Origin: Thermoanaerobaculia bacterium
Lineage (GTDB): Bacteria; Acidobacteriota; Thermoanaerobaculia; Multivoradales; Multivoraceae
DNA length: 64,000 nucleotides
NCBI GenBank assembly: GCA_963664405.1
Contig: OY761158.1
Coordinates: forward strand, 1,472,001-1,536,000
Direction of reading: 5' to 3'
The notes under the pieces are model-generated. The model had not been told where the DNA came from. It ran no database searches and worked only from the letters and a program-made list of their open reading frames with translations. Each line of letters opens with the position of its first letter. Within the stretch, counting starts at the first letter, position 1. The translations under genes and the position numbers were made by a program. Shown here piece after piece: positions 58,431 to 64,000 of the stretch.

Positions 58431-59750
58431 TCAATCAGCGATGGCCTGATACGTCAAGTTGCGGAACTCGGTTCCGTAGTCGAGCCCGGCATGGGGAATG
58501 ATCTGGATCATGAAGATGCCGATCAACTCCTCGACGGGGTCGATCCAGAAGCGAGTTCCCGCAGCGCCTCCCCAATTGTAGGTGCCCACGCTCCCCAGAG
58601 CTCCATACTCGCCGAGATCGGTGAGCACGGAAAAGCCGAGACCGAAACCATGCCCCGCTCGGCCGTGGCCCGGAATGTCGCCCAGATGGTCGGTGGTCAT
58701 CAGCTCCACCGACTTGCGCGACAGAATCCGTTTGCCGTCGAGGGTGCCGCCGTTGAGCATCATCTGCGCGAAGCGTAGGTAGTCGTGGGCGGTGGAAGCG
58801 AGCCCTCCACCCCCGGAAAAGAAGGTGGCGCCTTCGCGATATCCGTCGTCGGCACGCTCCGCCGGCGCCGGCACCAGCGGCTTCTTGCCGGAGCGAGCGC
58901 GCAGGAAGACGTCGCTTGAATCGGTCGTACCCTCGGGCGAGTAGAGAACGGCGAAGCGATCCTGCTTCGCATCGGGCACCACGAAGCCGGTATCGCGCAT
59001 CCCCAGGGGGCCGAGGATCCTCTCTTCGAGAAACCGATCGAAGCTCTGCCCGGAGATCACCTCGATGAGCCGGCCCTGCACGTCTACTGCAACGCTGTAA
59101 TGCCAACGAGTGCCCGGCTCGAAGCGTAGCGGCAATTGGCCAAGCTTCTCCACCGTCTCGGCGATGTTCTTGTCCTCCCGCAACACCCCCTGTTCTCGGT
59201 ACATGCGGTCGACCTTGGTGTCGCCGAAGAAGCCGTAGGTCATTCCCGCGGTGTGGCGCAGCAGGTCGCGAATGGTGATCGGCCGGCGCGCGGGGTGAGT
59301 GCGCACCGTGGTCTCCTCGCTACCGCGGCGCCTCTCTTCTTCCATCACCTGGAGCTTCGCCAGTTCCGGCAGGTACTCGGACACCGGATCGCTGAGCTGG
59401 AAGTGACCCTCTTCGTGAAGAATCATCACCCCGACACTGGTGATCGGCTTGGACATCGAATAGATGCGAAAGATGTCGTCATCGCGCATCTTGACCTTGC
59501 CCTCGCGGTCGGCCCAGCCCCAGCTTTGGAGGTAGGCGACCTTGCCTCGACGCGCGATCAGCGCCATCGCGCCGGGGATCTCTCCAGAGGCGACATAGGC
59601 CTGCATGTGCTCGCCGATGCGGGCGAGGCGCTCCGAAGAGAGGCCGACCGCCTCGGGCTCGACGGTCTCCAGGCCGTTGCCCAGAGCCGGGGCTGCGAGG
59701 AAGAGCACAAAAGAGAGGGGTGCGAAAACGGTGATCAGTGTTCGCTTCAT
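58431..59750 (-). CDS. Serine hydrolase (beta-lactamase class C-like fold)
   Basis: YSMSKP, LLRHTAG, WHYS, GGGGL, WGGAAGT. Confidence 0.9.
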   Translation of the reverse strand: MKRTLITVFAPLSFVLFLAAPALGNGLETVEPEAVGLSSERLARIGEHMQAYVASGEIPGAMALIARRGKVAYLQSWGWADREGKVKMRDDDIFRIYSMSKPITSVGVMILHEEGHFQLSDPVSEYLPELAKLQVMEEERRRGSEETTVRTHPARRPITIRDLLRHTAGMTYGFFGDTKVDRMYREQGVLREDKNIAETVEKLGQLPLRFEPGTRWHYSVAVDVQGRLIEVISGQSFDRFLEERILGPLGMRDTGFVVPDAKQDRFAVLYSPEGTTDSSDVFLRARSGKKPLVPAPAERADDGYREGATFFSGGGGLASTAHDYLRFAQMMLNGGTLDGKRILSRKSVELMTTDHLGDIPGHGRAGHGFGLGFSVLTDLGEYGALGSVGTYNWGGAAGTRFWIDPVEELIGIFMIQIIPHAGLDYGTEFRNLTYQAIAD

Positions 59751-59936
59751 GGCGTTCTCCAAAAGTAGAGAGAGGTGATCTTGGAGGATCGAATCTACGC
59801 CCCTTCGCCCCGCCGGGCAACTCACTAAGGCCGCTTCCCCCATCCGCCTATCCGCGCCGTTCGGCGATCTTCGCTAGACTCCCATAGGAGGCAGCGTTCC
59901 AAGGTTGGTCTCAGCCTCCCAAATCGGAGCCCTGTC

Positions 59937-61313
59937 CTGAGCGAAGTCAAAATCTGCGACGTTTCTCTGCGCGACGGCATGCAGGTGATGAACCGGCACG
60001 CGATCATCCCGCTCGAAGCGCGCCTGCAGCTGGTCGACGCTCTGATCCGCGCCAATGTTCCCTACATCGAGGTCGGCTCGTTCGTGAATCCTCGAGTGGT
60101 ACCTGCGATGGCCGACACGCCCGAGATGCTGCGCCAGATGCCTCCCTACGACGGCCAGATCGCCTGTCTGGTGCCCAGCCTCAAGTACTACGAAGAGTTG
60201 AAGCAGGCAGAGCGTGTCAACACTGTTGCGCTCTTCGTCTCCGCCTCCGAAGACTACGCCCGTAAGAACACGCGCATGACCGTCGACGAGGCGGTCGACG
60301 CGGCGGCCAAGGTCGCCGAGGCGGCTCGCGCCGACGGCTACCGTATCCGCGGCTACGTTTCGTTCGCTTTTCGCGACCCCTCGCTGCCCGAGAGTCGAAT
60401 GCCCGAAGAGCAGGTCGAGCGCATCACTCGACGCCTCATCGACATGGGCTGTGAGGCGGTCGCTCTCTCCGACACCGACGGCCTGGCCTCACCGCGAGAA
60501 ATGCAGCGTGTCATCGGCCACATTCGCAACGAGATCGGCCTCGAGCACATCGCCGTTCACCTCCACGACCGCAGAGGGCTCGGCATCACCAACGCATACT
60601 CCGCCTATCAGCAGGGCGTGCGAATCTTCGACGCCTCGATCGGCGGTATCGGCGGTGCGATCACGGTGCGTCACTCGATCGGCAACATCTCGACCGAAGA
60701 GCTGGTATGCATGTTCGACAGTATCGGCGTCGAAACCGGAATCGACGTCGAGCCTCTGATCGAGGCGGGATGTCGTGTCTCGCAGATGGCCGACTTCGTT
60801 GGCGACCCGCCGCCACCCAGTCGCATCATCCTCGACGAGCTCGCCAAGCGGCGGGCCGAGGCCGAAGAGACCGAGGGCATCGAGGCGGATCTCAGTCTGA
60901 AAGATCTCGTCAGCTCTCTCTTGCGTACCCTCGGCAAGCGCCCCCAGACCTTGTCTGTCGAGGCAGTCAGCCACACTCTGACCGACGCGGGCAAGCAGGT
61001 GCATCGCTTCCTCCACGCCCCCACCAACCGCGCCGCGGTGCTGTTCAGCCTCGCCTTGATGGTCGGGGTATCCGGGATCGGGGCGCTCTTCGTCAGAATC
61101 CTCCCTACTGACTGGGTCGCCCGAAGCGAAGTCATTGCCATCACACTCTTCAGCCTGGTCATGGTGCTCTTAGTCGGGGGCGCCTTGACCATGCTCCTCG
61201 TCGAAGGCCTACGTCTGCCGCAGAAGATGACGGCGGACGAGCGTGAGATCGTGCGCAGTGCGGTCACCGGTATTCTCGACGAGCTCGACGGAGCGAGCGA
61301 GCCAGGCAGCTAG
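59937..61313 (+). CDS. HMG-CoA lyase-like (DRE-TIM) protein with a C-terminal two-TM extension; probable CTG start
   Basis: VKICDVSLRDGMQ, IEVGSFVNP, SASE, SDTDG, HLHD, GNISTEE; GGCP loop replaced by GGAIT; two hydrophobic helices near the C-terminus. Confidence 0.8.
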   Translation: MSEVKICDVSLRDGMQVMNRHAIIPLEARLQLVDALIRANVPYIEVGSFVNPRVVPAMADTPEMLRQMPPYDGQIACLVPSLKYYEELKQAERVNTVALFVSASEDYARKNTRMTVDEAVDAAAKVAEAARADGYRIRGYVSFAFRDPSLPESRMPEEQVERITRRLIDMGCEAVALSDTDGLASPREMQRVIGHIRNEIGLEHIAVHLHDRRGLGITNAYSAYQQGVRIFDASIGGIGGAITVRHSIGNISTEELVCMFDSIGVETGIDVEPLIEAGCRVSQMADFVGDPPPPSRIILDELAKRRAEAEETEGIEADLSLKDLVSSLLRTLGKRPQTLSVEAVSHTLTDAGKQVHRFLHAPTNRAAVLFSLALMVGVSGIGALFVRILPTDWVARSEVIAITLFSLVMVLLVGGALTMLLVEGLRLPQKMTADEREIVRSAVTGILDELDGASEPGS

Positions 61314-61319
61314 AGGTTA

Positions 61320-61706
61320 ATGATGGCCGAAGAGAACTCGCCGACGACCGAACGGGACCGCTCGAAAGAGCTCGCATTCCACGAGCACGCCAAAGACCAG
61401 TTGACGCAGCAGATCCGCACTTACGGCCAGGAGCTGATCCGTGAATCGGTATCGACAGCCCGCGCCCAGAAACACCCTCTCGTCCAGCAGAAGGATGTTC
61501 AGCAGGCGGCGCACCGACTTCACACCGAGTTCCGCAATCGAACCGCCGTGCTGCTGCAGTTCATGGGCGCCGGCCTCATCGGCGTCTTCCTGCAAGGCTT
61601 CGCTATCGAAATGCTCGCCGAGAACCCCAATCTGTGGGCGGTCGTGGTCTACGTCGTGGTCGGCTTCGCCGGCCTCTTCGGCGTCTTCTGGTCCCTGATT
61701 CGCTAG
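61320..61706 (+). CDS. Putative transmembrane histone-fold protein
   Basis: Residues 19-67 align without gaps to archaeal histone alpha2-L2-alpha3 (recalled HMfB), followed by two TM helices; 6 nt after the upstream stop. Confidence 0.65.
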   Translation: MMAEENSPTTERDRSKELAFHEHAKDQLTQQIRTYGQELIRESVSTARAQKHPLVQQKDVQQAAHRLHTEFRNRTAVLLQFMGAGLIGVFLQGFAIEMLAENPNLWAVVVYVVVGFAGLFGVFWSLIR

Positions 61707-61845
61707 CTGGCTGCGGGAATGGTGAATACCATTCCCTCCACCAGCTGAATATGGCGCCGAGGACGGCGCGCGTCGGCCGTCCGCGGACGGACGGCCTCCA
61801 TGGCTACCCCAGAGTTTCCGGCCCGGCTACCGCGGATCTTCCGTT

Positions 61846-64000
61846 CTAACGGGGCGGCTCTCCGCCGACCCACCACGGGCTCGACCAGGCCAGATGGCCG
61901 TCGAGCTGTTCGACACGCACGTAGTACCAGTCCCCAGGGTCACCGCCGCGATCGGTGAAGCTGAACTCGACGTCATCGCGTAGCCCAACCGCACGCTCGA
62001 CGCTGACTCGGTCGCGGTATCGACCCTCCTCGAGCACCTCCTCGCTCTGAGGTTGACCGAGTTCCGGCACTACCAGAGCGAAGCGAGCTTCGGCAAATTC
62101 CTGCGGCGTGCGCACCTGGGTGGGCGCGGTGCCCATCTCTCGAGCCGCCTCTAGATCGAAGGCTACCAGTGTCGAGGCCGAAGTGCCTTCGATCGTGAGA
62201 GCGATCGCGCGCCGCGATCCGCGAGTGGCGAAGTGGAAGCCCACAGTGGCCTCCTCGACCTCGATACGATCGGCATCGAGGTGAGGAGTGCCGAGGAATC
62301 GAGCGCCTGTAAGTCGCCCGTTCTCGACACTCAGGCTACCGGTCCAGGTGCGCTGACCGCGCGGGTTGTCGCGGATGGTTACGTACGACTCGGAGTAGAA
62401 GCGCACTACGACCTCATTGTCGGCTACCCCTTCCAACGCCGCCCCGCTGGTATCGAAGCTCCCGGCAACCTCACCGTTCTTGATCAGCTCGACACTGCGG
62501 ATCGGGCCGGTGCCGATCGCCCTGCCCTCGACCTGCCTGGTCTCAGAAAGGGGTAGCGCACTCCCCATCGCGCCGCCGTTGAGACGTGCATCGAGGATGA
62601 TGCGCTGAGCGCCTGTGGTGGCGTAGGCACGCCGGGCCTTGAGTGCGTCGAAGACGTCGTCGGTGGTCTTCGAAGGTGCCCAGGCAGCGGCCAGGCCGCC
62701 GAACTGGAAGATATTCGAGCGAACTCCGGCGGTCGTCGGGTGCCCGGGCGAATACCCGGGATGACCGCGATGATCGTCCGAGGCGCCGACGAAGCCGACT
62801 CTGAAGCCGCTCTCCAGATAGCGCTGCCCGAACCACTCGAAGGTGCCATGCCCGGACATGATCTCGATCAGGGTCTCCATGTCGAGGTCGCTGAGCCGAA
62901 AGTCGCCATTCTGATGGGCGTGCGGGATGATCAGTACATCTTTGGGGTCGTGCTTCTGACGCAGACCGCGATACAGCATGCTCAGATCCGGCGCCTCCTG
63001 AACGGGCACCCGATCGAAGCCAGGGCCGCGAAAGAAGACATTGTGGTGGCCGCCCCGCTGCCGCGCCACCGTCCACTCGTATCCCGGAAAGACCAGGAGC
63101 TCGTTCTCGCGATGAAACTGCTTGGCCGCGTCGTTGAGATACTTCCAATTGGCGTCTGTCAACCACAGATCGTGCTCGGTAAGCGTGACGAAGTCGAGCC
63201 GGGCATCGTCCCGCGCGAAGCGGAAGTAGCCCTCGGGCGTGCCCTGGCCCTCGGCGAAACCACAGTGGCCGTGGGTCTCCCCCCAGTAGACGTGCTCAGT
63301 GGGACTCTCACGCACCCAGATCGGGTTGGCGACGCCGCGAATCTCGCCGTCGTCGCTGCGGAAAGTGATGCGCACGACACCGGGCTGCGACAAGCGAAGC
63401 GGAAGCTCATAGATCGCCTTCCCCGCAGGGATCTGGGCGAATTTCTGCTCACCACGGAACACTCCATAGCCTGGGATGTCTCCCGTCGCCCGGTTGTAGA
63501 AACGATCCTCGGTGCGTACCGATACCTTGACCGCATCGCCGACGGCGACGATCGAGGGCGCGAAACCGTGGACCCCATAGGCCTCCGCGCCTACGACCTT
63601 GAAGGTCGGGAGCGGCAGCTCGTAGAACCTCCCGTCACCGGGATCGACGTGCAGGGGCAGTGCGATCGCGTCGTTCGAGAAAACACCGATCTCGAGGCCC
63701 CGCCCCCCGCCCGCGCGGTCGCCGTACACCACGGTAACGGTGTCGCCGGCGGCCAGAGAACCGCCCTGCACTCGAAACACCGGATACCCCTGCGCCGCAC
63801 GGAAGCCTCCGTACGGGCCCCACACCGGAGCCCGGTCGAGTTCGAGGCGAAGCGAAGGGTTGCTGGTTGTAGCCGAGACGTAGTTGTCTCCACCAGGATC
63901 ATCGATCTGGAGCTGACCGTAGCCGCCGGCATAGTGCTGACTGGCAAGCACCCCGCCACCCTCGGCGACCCCCAAGCTGCCGACCGTCCACTCGACACGG
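61846..64000 (-). CDS. DUF3604-like PHP-domain protein, truncated by the window edge
   Basis: YWGETHGH, TEHD, GYEWT..GGHHNV, IPHAH, SDDHRGHPG, AYATTG, YYVRVEQ..AWSSP. Confidence 0.82.
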   Translation of the reverse strand, partial: RVEWTVGSLGVAEGGGVLASQHYAGGYGQLQIDDPGGDNYVSATTSNPSLRLELDRAPVWGPYGGFRAAQGYPVFRVQGGSLAAGDTVTVVYGDRAGGGRGLEIGVFSNDAIALPLHVDPGDGRFYELPLPTFKVVGAEAYGVHGFAPSIVAVGDAVKVSVRTEDRFYNRATGDIPGYGVFRGEQKFAQIPAGKAIYELPLRLSQPGVVRITFRSDDGEIRGVANPIWVRESPTEHVYWGETHGHCGFAEGQGTPEGYFRFARDDARLDFVTLTEHDLWLTDANWKYLNDAAKQFHRENELLVFPGYEWTVARQRGGHHNVFFRGPGFDRVPVQEAPDLSMLYRGLRQKHDPKDVLIIPHAHQNGDFRLSDLDMETLIEIMSGHGTFEWFGQRYLESGFRVGFVGASDDHRGHPGYSPGHPTTAGVRSNIFQFGGLAAAWAPSKTTDDVFDALKARRAYATTGAQRIILDARLNGGAMGSALPLSETRQVEGRAIGTGPIRSVELIKNGEVAGSFDTSGAALEGVADNEVVVRFYSESYVTIRDNPRGQRTWTGSLSVENGRLTGARFLGTPHLDADRIEVEEATVGFHFATRGSRRAIALTIEGTSASTLVAFDLEAAREMGTAPTQVRTPQEFAEARFALVVPELGQPQSEEVLEEGRYRDRVSVERAVGLRDDVEFSFTDRGGDPGDWYYVRVEQLDGHLAWSSPWWVGGEPPR

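What the first reader, a model, noticed from the sequence alone, without database searches (positions are those of the whole stretch)
59937..61706. Candidate new two-gene system: membrane-anchored HMG-CoA-lyase-like enzyme plus TM histone-fold partner
Seen: the two genes are 6 nt apart and stand alone on the + strand. The lyase-like protein has a ~160-aa tail with two TM helices, which canonical HMG-CoA lyases lack. The segment before TM1 (HRFLHAPTNRAAVL) resembles the same segment of the partner (HRLHTEFRNRTAVL). The final helix KMTADEREIVRSAVTGILDEL weakly recalls the start of a histone alpha2 helix. Inference: the two proteins form a membrane heteromer through related, possibly split or permuted histone-fold/TM modules, linking an acyl-CoA-binding TIM barrel to a membrane or chromatin function. 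I know of no description of this pairing.
Basis: partly seen in the sequence, partly recalled or inferred. Interest (0 to 1): 0.85.

Follow-up and report, generated by a model that had tools for sequence, protein, structure and literature searches.

The report
Membrane HMG-CoA-lyase-like enzyme with histone-fold partner
A small group of soil and marine bacteria always keeps two adjacent genes together, a membrane-anchored relative of HMG-CoA lyase and a tiny membrane protein with a partial histone fold, which probably form an undescribed membrane complex of unknown function.

Summary
The two genes are real and form a tight operon. Gene A runs 59937-61313, probably from a CTG start. Gene B runs 61320-61706, after a 6-nt gap. 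A is an HMG-CoA-lyase-like TIM barrel plus a tail with two TM helices. It keeps the metal and Arg/Asp residues but has Ala where the lyase has its loop Cys. B has a weak but consistent alpha2-L2-alpha3 histone-fold signal, no alpha1, and a very conserved Gly-rich TM hairpin.

The pair is strictly linked. A sits directly upstream of B in 18 of 18 testable loci, and the same 7 of 301 class genomes hold both.

No histone signal was found in A's tail. The complex prediction gave no verdict.

Two new points emerged:
- B belongs to a wider family of about 120-aa proteins. In 24 of 27 testable metagenome loci it follows a small protein with two TM helices and a C-terminal helix, the same architecture as A's tail.
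- The family's TM hairpin is homologous (E 1.4e-19) to the TM domain of a CARF-TM effector beside an mCpol gene.

Best reading: an obligate two-subunit membrane complex. Its function is unproven.

The parts
59926..59929 (+). GGAG, a likely ribosome-binding site 7 nt before the CTG start of gene A
   Evidence: Read from the sequence.
59937..61313 (+). Gene A (458 aa from CTG): an HMG-CoA-lyase-like enzyme with a membrane-anchoring tail. The public gene call starts at ATG 59979 (444 aa) and would lack the conserved Arg-Asp motif.
   Evidence: P0063 is the 444-aa form.
59937..60800 (+). DRE-TIM / HMGL-like barrel (residues 1-288)
   Evidence: PF00682, 8.7e-32. Human HMG-CoA lyase 2cw6, 1e-47 over residues 3-283. 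AF2 pLDDT is about 85-98 over most of the barrel.
60801..61037 (+). GDPPPPS linker and three cytoplasmic helices (294-312, 321-333, 341-359) ending in the juxtamembrane motif APTNRAAV
   Evidence: pLDDT below 50, so the secondary structure is indicative only.
61038..61094 (+). A TM1 (residues 368-386)
   Evidence: Kyte-Doolittle 2.36. AF2 helix 362-388.
61131..61187 (+). A TM2 (residues 399-417)
   Evidence: Kyte-Doolittle 2.67. AF2 helix 397-424.
61233..61292 (+). A C-terminal cytoplasmic helix (433-452; E435 invariant, R436 nearly so, in the ER of EREIVR)
61312..61317 (+). AGAGGT spanning the stop codon of A: a likely ribosome-binding site for B (translational coupling)
   Evidence: In relatives the same GAGGT is encoded by the C-terminal Y-E-V codons of A.
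61320..61706 (+). Gene B (128 aa): a partial histone fold plus a 2-TM hairpin
61368..61535 (+). B cytoplasmic alpha2-L2-alpha3 histone-like part (about residues 17-72). Alpha3 runs on into TM1.
   Evidence: NCBIfam archaea_histone residues 22-63. Family profile against histones. AF2 helices 12-49 and 57-98. Foldseek.
61551..61616 (+). B TM1 (residues 78-99), with invariant Q80, Q92 and E97 and the Gly-rich stretch GAGLxGxFxQGF
61632..61700 (+). B TM2 (residues 105-127), YVxxGFxGxFGxFWSL
   Evidence: Homologous to the TM domain of a CARF-TM protein.
61715..61736 (.). Perfect 8-bp inverted repeat (GGGAATGG-6 nt-CCATTCCC) 9 nt after the stop of B, between convergent genes. It is a possible terminator without a T run.
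   Evidence: Read. Not reported by the terminator scan.

Best explanation
A and B are the two subunits of a dedicated inner-membrane complex found in some Thermoanaerobaculia (Acidobacteriota). A places a cytoplasmic metal-dependent TIM-barrel enzyme on the membrane through a C-terminal TM hairpin followed by a cytoplasmic helix. The barrel belongs to the HMG-CoA-lyase branch of the HMGL-like (DRE-TIM) family, but its catalytic loop is altered. B is made by coupled translation right after A. Its cytoplasmic half is an alpha1-less histone fold, which I infer to be a dimerisation element, and its alpha3 runs straight into a very conserved Gly-rich TM hairpin. Inferred mechanism: the hairpins of A and B pack together in the membrane, and B dimers hold two A barrels at the membrane face. 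There the barrel cleaves or condenses an acyl-CoA-type substrate that is not plain HMG-CoA. Shown: gene structure, domain content, strict co-occurrence and coupling, family memberships, and loss of the loop Cys. Inferred: physical binding, stoichiometry, topology (N-in, C-in for both), substrate and purpose.
For: Linkage: A lies directly upstream of B in 18 of 18 testable loci outside the window. B and A's tail occur in the same 7 of 301 class genomes, and neither occurs in 293. The stop-to-start distance is -4 to +8 nt in 12 of 16 loci, and 6 nt here. No other neighbour is shared by all loci. Enzyme: the barrel matches HMG-CoA lyases at 1e-47, with Arg-Asp, Glu, HxH and Asn aligned identically. 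These and further positions (N19, R20, H21, H246) are invariant in 34 homologues. An enoyl-CoA hydratase (PF00378, 4.2e-42) follows B on the same strand in 5 of 19 loci, and a HAD hydrolase follows it in 3 of these. This fits acyl-CoA metabolism. A is a separate paralogue, not the housekeeping lyase. A-type proteins score 217-237 bits on NF004283, against 263-332 bits for canonical ones, and 2 of the 7 A-type genomes in that sample (G131, G579) carry both. Functional hairpin: 25 of B's 40 invariant positions lie in its last 52 residues, which is more than a passive anchor needs. Wider pattern: a profile built without B's subfamily finds B at 1.1e-26. In that wider family, 24 of 27 testable metagenome loci have an upstream same-strand small protein with a TM hairpin and a C-terminal helix, which is the architecture of A's tail.
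Against: No direct evidence of binding was obtained. A's tail is not detectably homologous to the small upstream partners: hhalign gives E 0.007 and 0.0045 at 5-8% probability, the same as the control of B against the partners (0.0049). An HMM of the partners does not find A among 64,270 six-frame ORFs of the genome (best E 0.24; A is not in the 25 listed). The loop Cys, which I recall is needed by HMG-CoA lyase, is Ala in all 34 homologues, so lyase activity is uncertain. The acyl-CoA neighbour is present in only 5 of 19 loci; 5 others have an Nramp-type transporter instead. Distribution is patchy: 0 of 33 other genomes of the window's own family against 6 of 10 in a sister family. The homology of the hairpin to an anti-phage effector's TM domain fits a conflict role at least as well as a scaffold role.
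Confidence: 0.45

Rival explanations
1. Conflict or stress-response module. B's hairpin is a membrane-perturbing effector. A holds it inactive through its tail, and A's barrel acts as a metabolite sensor or constitutive signal maker. The logic resembles the guard logic of Panoptes systems, where loss of a signal releases a TM effector.
For: The family's TM hairpin matches the TM domain of a 255-aa CARF-TM protein at hhalign probability 99.2%, E 1.4e-19, over 59 columns. B itself matches it at BLASTP E 2e-8. That protein matches PADLOC CARF_m9--CARF_TM at 3.4e-43 and sits beside an mCpol gene (PF18182, 3.2e-24). In passages of PMC13577387, the TM domain of a type II Panoptes CARF-TM is essential for toxicity, and the apo form disrupts membranes. 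The A-B cassette is self-contained, has variable neighbours, and is patchily distributed. The catalytic Cys is lost.
Against: A and B hit no PADLOC or PHROGs model. No relatives were found in viral contigs or plasmids. Sequences are strongly conserved for a defence gene (mean column identity 72% for A and 74% for B). No defence genes flank the pair here. The CARF-TM link rests on one sequence type seen in 2 of 30 loci (L054, L055). The PADLOC CARF_TM model does not detect B-family proteins even at E 10.
Confidence: 0.2
2. One reading: A's tail and B are related, split or permuted histone-fold/TM modules that pair like histones and tie the enzyme to a chromatin or membrane function.
For: BLASTP of tail against B gives E 7e-4. 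Both share N-R-x-x-V-L before TM1 and P-x-x-W in the TM1-TM2 loop. B lacks alpha1, and the best (non-significant) local match of the tail to the B family is A's last helix against B's alpha2 start.
Against: hhalign gives E 0.76, 0.23 and 0.14 and 0.22. The B profile found 130 relatives among 1.84 billion representatives, all 39-193 aa and none A-like. The tail profile finds no histone in the PDB. There is no DNA-related neighbour. Schwab et al. state that TM histones lack the usual DNA-binding residues (passages of PMC11390915).
Confidence: 0.07
3. There is no specific complex. B is an independent small membrane protein (for example a channel or stress protein) that merely shares an operon with a tethered, otherwise ordinary HMG-CoA lyase.
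For: The wider B family exists without any HMGL gene. A's barrel keeps all aligned metal and substrate residues except the Cys.
Against: Co-occurrence and adjacency have no exception in the genomes searched. The tail occurs only on HMGL proteins (78 of 78 hits carry PF00682). A coexists with a canonical lyase in 2 genomes.
Confidence: 0.13

Closest known systems
HMG-CoA lyase (EC 4.1.3.4; human HMGCL, PDB 2CW6/3MP3; bacterial 2FTP, 1YDN, 1YDO)
   Same: Same TIM-barrel family (PF00682). The best PDB matches score 1e-47 to 3e-40 over residues 3-283. Arg-Asp (RDG), Glu (IEVGSF), HxH (HLHD) and Asn (GN) are aligned and identical.
   Different: The loop GGCPY is GGAIT (Cys to Ala) in all 34 homologues. 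There is a two-residue insertion with invariant N-R-H after RDGMQ. The score of 235.5 bits is below the NCBIfam cut-off of 246. A roughly 170-aa tail with two TM helices is present. A small membrane partner is obligatory. The role of the Cys in catalysis is recalled, not tested here.
'Transmembrane histones', a minor category in Schwab et al. 2024 (PMC11390915)
   Same: A histone-fold signal joined to TM helices. The paper says these lack the usual DNA-binding residues and may act outside genome organisation (passages).
   Different: The main text gives one sentence and refers to Supplementary Fig. 7, which I could not see, so identity with B's family is unverified. The passages found by searching for 'transmembrane' and 'membrane' mention no partner gene, no HMGL fusion and no CARF-TM link.
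CARF-TM effector of type II Panoptes (mCpol) anti-phage systems (PMC13577387)
   Same: The C-terminal 2-TM hairpin of a metagenomic CARF-TM protein is homologous to the hairpin of B's family (E 1.4e-19; B directly 2e-8). In both, a cytoplasmic domain precedes the hairpin; the dimerising role is reported for CARF and inferred for B.
   Different: B has a histone-like domain in place of CARF. No mCpol is adjacent to B. PADLOC models do not detect B. I did not compare B with the two proteins studied in that paper.
   Same: Same gene order and strand, and the same tight spacing. The upstream protein ends in TM hairpin, basic stretch and helix, like A's tail (24 of 27 testable loci).
   Different: The upstream protein is only 105-164 aa and has no enzyme domain. 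Homology to A's tail is not detectable.
Oxaloacetate decarboxylase OadA with its small membrane anchor OadG (recalled as an analogy)
   Same: An HMGL-like barrel is held at the membrane by a small TM subunit.
   Different: A scores only 37 bits on the oadA model against a cut-off of 756. A has no biotin domain, and there is no pump subunit nearby.

Membership tests
HMG-CoA lyase (NCBIfam NF004283 / PRK05692) | HMGL-like TIM barrel | tested here: met
   PF00682 at 8.7e-32 and 111 bits against a cut-off of 29. AF2 gives a barrel with pLDDT about 85-98.
HMG-CoA lyase (NCBIfam NF004283 / PRK05692) | Metal ligands and Arg-Asp pair (human D42, H233, H235, N275, R41; numbering recalled) | tested here: met
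   All are aligned and identical to 2cw6 and invariant in 34 homologues (D13, H208, H210, N250, R12).
HMG-CoA lyase (NCBIfam NF004283 / PRK05692) | Catalytic-loop cysteine (GGCPY; human C266, role recalled) | tested here: not met
   GGAIT in the window protein and in all 34 aligned homologues (A241 invariant).
HMG-CoA lyase (NCBIfam NF004283 / PRK05692) | Score above the curated cut-off | tested here: not met
   235.5 bits against 246. In the order sample, A-type proteins score 217-237 bits and canonical ones 263-332.
HMG-CoA lyase (NCBIfam NF004283 / PRK05692) | Cleaves HMG-CoA to acetoacetate and acetyl-CoA | not testable with these tools
   Needs an enzyme assay.
Histone fold (B) | alpha2-L2-alpha3 core with the R/K-x-x-[IV]-x-x-x-D-[IV]-x-x-A signature (signature recalled) | tested here: inconclusive
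   NCBIfam archaea_histone E 0.0082, 16.5 bits against a cut-off of 50. The family profile ranks histones first in the PDB, best 1.2e-4 and most 0.03-0.2. Foldseek shows H4 and HMfB at rmsd 1.1-1.5 over 42-45 columns, but no E-value is below 0.58. PF00808 is matched by 5 of 42 family members (best 9.5e-4), and the LonB AAA-lid by 9 of 42.
Histone fold (B) | alpha1-L1 preceding alpha2 | tested here: not met
   Matches begin at profile position 11 or at B residue 22. Residues 1-16 are variable and have low pLDDT.
Histone fold (B) | Handshake dimer | not testable with these tools
   No homodimer job was run, and the only complex job gave no verdict.
Histone fold (tail of A) | Any histone-fold signal | tested here: not met
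   The tail profile against the PDB gives 1 hit, a non-histone part of TAF6, at E 0.91. hhalign against the B family gives E 0.22. Pfam finds nothing in the tail.
Wider TM-histone family (about 120 aa) | B is detected by a profile that excludes its own subfamily | tested here: met
   Alignment A4 (51 distant members) finds B at 1.1e-26 and 95 bits over positions 4-121. The A1 profile finds 130 representatives at E up to 0.001.
Type II Panoptes (mCpol + CARF-TM) | CARF sensor domain | tested here: not met
   No PADLOC hit for B at E 0.01, and only PycTM at 0.014 when the limit was raised to E 10.
Type II Panoptes (mCpol + CARF-TM) | Adjacent mCpol cyclase | tested here: not met
   The genes on either side are a beta-lactamase-fold protein and DUF3604. 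No recurrent third gene appears in 19 loci.
Type II Panoptes (mCpol + CARF-TM) | Homologous TM effector hairpin | tested here: met
   hhalign E 1.4e-19 and BLASTP E 2e-8 against one metagenomic CARF-TM sequence type (L054 and L055).

The most novel reading that the evidence does not exclude
TM-histone proteins are a widespread class of small membrane effectors whose Gly-rich hairpin is shared with an anti-phage CARF-TM effector, each held in check by an upstream 2-TM partner. In Thermoanaerobaculia that partner has captured an HMG-CoA-lyase-like barrel. This would make an acyl-CoA or metabolite-gated membrane switch: a metabolic enzyme fold used as the sensor of a membrane-permeabilising system.
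Probability: 0.18. Interest if true: 0.85.

Novelty: new variant of a known kind. Interest (0 to 1): 0.6.

Why it matters
Prokaryotic histone-fold proteins with TM helices have been noted in print only in passing and have no assigned role. This locus gives them a fixed partner, and that makes them testable by co-purification, toxicity, enzyme and phage assays. The locus also defines a distinct membrane-bound branch of the HMG-CoA-lyase family that lacks the loop Cys I recall as essential, so it may catalyse a new reaction. The hairpin shared with a CARF-TM anti-phage effector links a supposed chromatin fold to membrane-effector biology. If that link holds, it would change how these 'histones' are classified.

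Tried and rejected
Complex prediction of A's tail (296-458) with B, both given as alignments, scored 0.00 in both runs. The verdict was 'no answer' and the controls were not run. I take this as neither for nor against binding.

RNA evidence: no RNA holder is listed for the locus.

Synteny test for an insertion: the two flanking genes belong to multi-copy families and are not adjacent in the five relatives searched, so nothing can be concluded.

The protein atlas gave only unnamed clusters. Scores were 0.79 or lower for the tail and 0.92-0.94 for B. These are leads only.

Free-standing homologues of A's tail: the 'shorter' search found only 9 close fragments on short contigs. That search depends on shared exact words, so distant relatives could be missed.

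Viral contigs and plasmids gave no relatives of B or of a distant family member.

The promoter and terminator scan found nothing useful on the + strand.

Papers: four searches found no description of an HMGL protein paired with a TM histone, or of a partner gene for TM histones. Supplementary Fig. 7 of PMC11390915 may show this family, and I could not see it.

An oxaloacetate-decarboxylase-type assembly is rejected as membership (37 bits against 756).
Full report
THE LOCUS.
Two + strand genes sit between two - strand genes. The flanking genes are a beta-lactamase-fold protein at 58431-59843 (PF00144, 8.5e-74) and a DUF3604 protein at 61846-63975.

Gene A ends at 61313 and gene B begins at 61320. 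The six bases between them are AGGTTA, and AGAGGT spans A's stop codon, which fits coupled translation.

With ATG, GTG or TTG starts, A would begin at 59979, and the public call of 444 aa does so (P0063). That form lacks the motif xEVKICDVSLRDGMQ with which all 34 aligned homologues begin. The CTG at 59937 restores the motif and has GGAG 7 nt upstream. With table-11 starts the frame is open from an ATC at 59850, so the exact start is not proven.

GENE A.
The first roughly 288 residues are an HMGL-like TIM barrel (PF00682).
- The closest solved relatives are HMG-CoA lyases (1e-47 to 3e-40). Aldolases and isopropylmalate or homocitrate synthases are far weaker.
- In the printed alignment, Arg-Asp, the Glu of IEVGSF, the HxH and the Asn are identical to the human enzyme. 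The loop GGCPY, however, reads GGAIT.
- Ala241 is invariant in the family, as are N19, R20, H21 and H246, which canonical lyases do not have.
- The NCBIfam lyase model gives 235.5 bits against a cut-off of 246.
- In 81 genomes of the order, A-type proteins form a separate score class (217-237 bits in 7 genomes) from canonical lyases (263-332 bits in 12 genomes). Two genomes, G131 and G579, have both.

A is therefore a distinct paralogous branch and not a displaced housekeeping lyase. The window's genome has no protein over the cut-off and has two further HMGL-like paralogues that keep GGCPY.

After a GDPPPPS linker come three helices, two hydrophobic segments (368-386 and 399-417) and a last helix at 433-452 (tail pLDDT is mostly below 55). 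The tail occurs only on HMGL proteins: 78 of 78 hits carry PF00682.

GENE B.
B has 60 close relatives of about 128 aa at 61-100% identity. JGI names four of them 'histone H3/H4' and two 'YuzA (DUF378)'.

Evidence for a histone fold is weak in every single test but consistent across tests:
- NCBIfam archaea_histone gives E 0.0082 over residues 22-63.
- The profile of the wider family ranks H2B, H3, H4-H3 doublets, CENP-W, NC2-beta and archaeal histones at the top of the PDB. The best E is 1.2e-4 and most are 0.03-0.2, always over the part that aligns to H2B residues about 52-101, which I recall is alpha2-L2-alpha3.
- Foldseek of the AF2 model (pLDDT 70.9) lists mainly H4 and HMfB, but no E-value is below 0.58.
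- AAA+ lid domains also appear.
- No alpha1 is seen.

Alpha3 continues into TM1 (78-99), and TM2 is 105-127. Of B's 40 invariant positions, 25 lie in the last 52 residues. They include Q80, Q92, E97 and a run of glycines.

LINKAGE.
B was found in 3 of 401 genomes sampled from the phylum and in 7 of 301 from the class. A's tail was found in the same 7, plus one marginal 20-bit hit. In the window's own family, 0 of 33 other genomes have the pair. In a sister family, 6 of 10 do.

A genome-contig scan gave 18 loci. With the two loci, A lies directly upstream of B in 18 of 18 loci that hold enough upstream DNA. L005 and L022 are cut by contig ends. Some loci and G handles are the same genomes, so these counts overlap.

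The distance from A's stop to B's start is -4 nt in 5 loci and 0 to +8 nt in 7. It is 167 nt in one locus, and my script could not resolve it in 3.

No other gene is shared by all loci. An enoyl-CoA hydratase follows B in 5 of 19 loci, with a HAD hydrolase after it in 3 of these. An Nramp-type transporter follows B in 5 others.

ARE THE TWO TM MODULES RELATED?
- BLASTP of tail against B gives E 7e-4.
- Profile comparison does not support the relationship: E 0.76, 0.23 and 0.14, and 0.22 against the wider family.
- A profile of B searched against 1.84 billion representatives found 130 proteins, all 39-193 aa and none A-like.
- The tail profile finds no histone in the PDB.
- What the two families share is N-R-x-x-V-L before TM1 and P-x-x-W in the loop.

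THE WIDER FAMILY.
The 130 representatives share the pattern LH..A......FA..L..QAK..A.......VL..HV..A followed by GGALFGAF.QGF..EL and Y...GF.G...VFWGL. A profile of 51 of them, built without B's subfamily, detects B at 1.1e-26 but detects nothing else in 401 Acidobacteriota genomes.

A metagenome scan with eight of them returned 30 loci:
- 24 loci have an upstream same-strand ORF of 105-164 aa. It ends close to the start of the B-like gene and consists of a variable N-terminus, a TM hairpin, a basic stretch and a helix. There are 19 distinct sequences, and 23 loci show two or more hydrophobic peaks.
- 3 loci are cut by contig ends.
- 1 locus has no such ORF.
- 2 loci (L054 and L055) are a different fusion, described below.

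Nothing else recurs in these loci. This is the architecture and position of A's tail. Homology is not detectable: hhalign gives E 0.007 and 0.0045 at 5-8% probability, no better than the control of B against the partners. The partner HMM does not pick A out of the genome's 64,270 six-frame ORFs. I therefore treat the correspondence as architectural only.

THE CARF-TM LINK.
In L054 and L055 the hairpin is the C-terminus of a 255-aa protein. That protein matches PADLOC CARF_m9--CARF_TM (3.4e-43) and lies just downstream of an mCpol gene (PF18182, 3.2e-24).
- The family profile aligns to its last 59 residues at probability 99.2% and E 1.4e-19.
- B itself aligns at E 2e-8.
- Passages of PMC13577387 report that in type II Panoptes the TM domain of CARF-TM is essential for toxicity, and that the ligand-free effector disrupts membranes and arrests growth.
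- PADLOC models do not detect B or its relatives, and the link rests on one sequence type.

VERDICT.
The central inference, that the pair works together in the membrane, is strongly supported by linkage but unproven physically. The claim that the two modules are related histone-fold/TM modules fails the profile test.

I favour a dedicated two-subunit membrane enzyme complex (0.45). A conflict or stress switch in which B's hairpin is the effector comes second (0.2).

Noticed in passing
window 59937-59981: The public gene call for A (444 aa, from ATG 59979) omits the conserved N-terminal strand and the Arg-Asp motif. A CTG at 59937 with GGAG upstream is the likely start. CTG starts are rare, so this may be a mis-annotation worth flagging.
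   Followed up: partly
L003, L007-L009, L012-L015, L017-L019, L021 (end of gene A); window 61312-61317: The conserved C-terminal Y-E-V of A is encoded by TAC GAG GTN, which contains GAGGT a few bases before B's start (12 of 16 loci). The protein motif may be conserved because it doubles as B's ribosome-binding site. The window's own A lacks YEV and carries GAGGT just after its stop instead.
   Followed up: partly
L055:510-1742 (and L054): A metagenomic mCpol gene is followed by a CARF-TM gene, a type II Panoptes-like pair. Its TM hairpin is homologous to that of the TM-histone family.
   Followed up: partly
L029-L057 (24 loci): An unnamed two-gene module recurs in metagenomes: a small protein with a TM hairpin and a C-terminal helix, then a TM-histone of about 120 aa. 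Its neighbours vary (glucokinase-like, FtsK-like and others, named from reading the translations without a family search).
   Followed up: partly
L005 and L021 (two contigs of one MAG): Two contigs of a MAG labelled Polyangiaceae carry the pair. B is 72-78% identical and A 77% identical to the window's proteins, and every other carrier is labelled Acidobacteriota, Thermoanaerobaculia or Candidatus Multivoradales. This is either a binning error or a transfer.
   Followed up: no
G000:C1:3921553-3922479 and 5203824-5204750 (L027, L028): Two paralogous HMGL-like proteins of 360 and 390 aa keep GGCPY but have MREGLQ in place of RDGMQ. They score 177-185 bits on the lyase model, and the same type is present in all 8 same-family genomes searched. 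They form another uncharacterised branch.
   Followed up: partly
window 61715-61736: A perfect 8-bp inverted repeat lies 9 nt after B's stop, between convergent genes, and has no T run.
   Followed up: no
G587:C1:536997-537851: A further A-type hit (216.9 bits, open frame 447 aa) lies in a genome that does not appear in the listed rows of the two class searches. I did not check whether B follows it.
   Followed up: no
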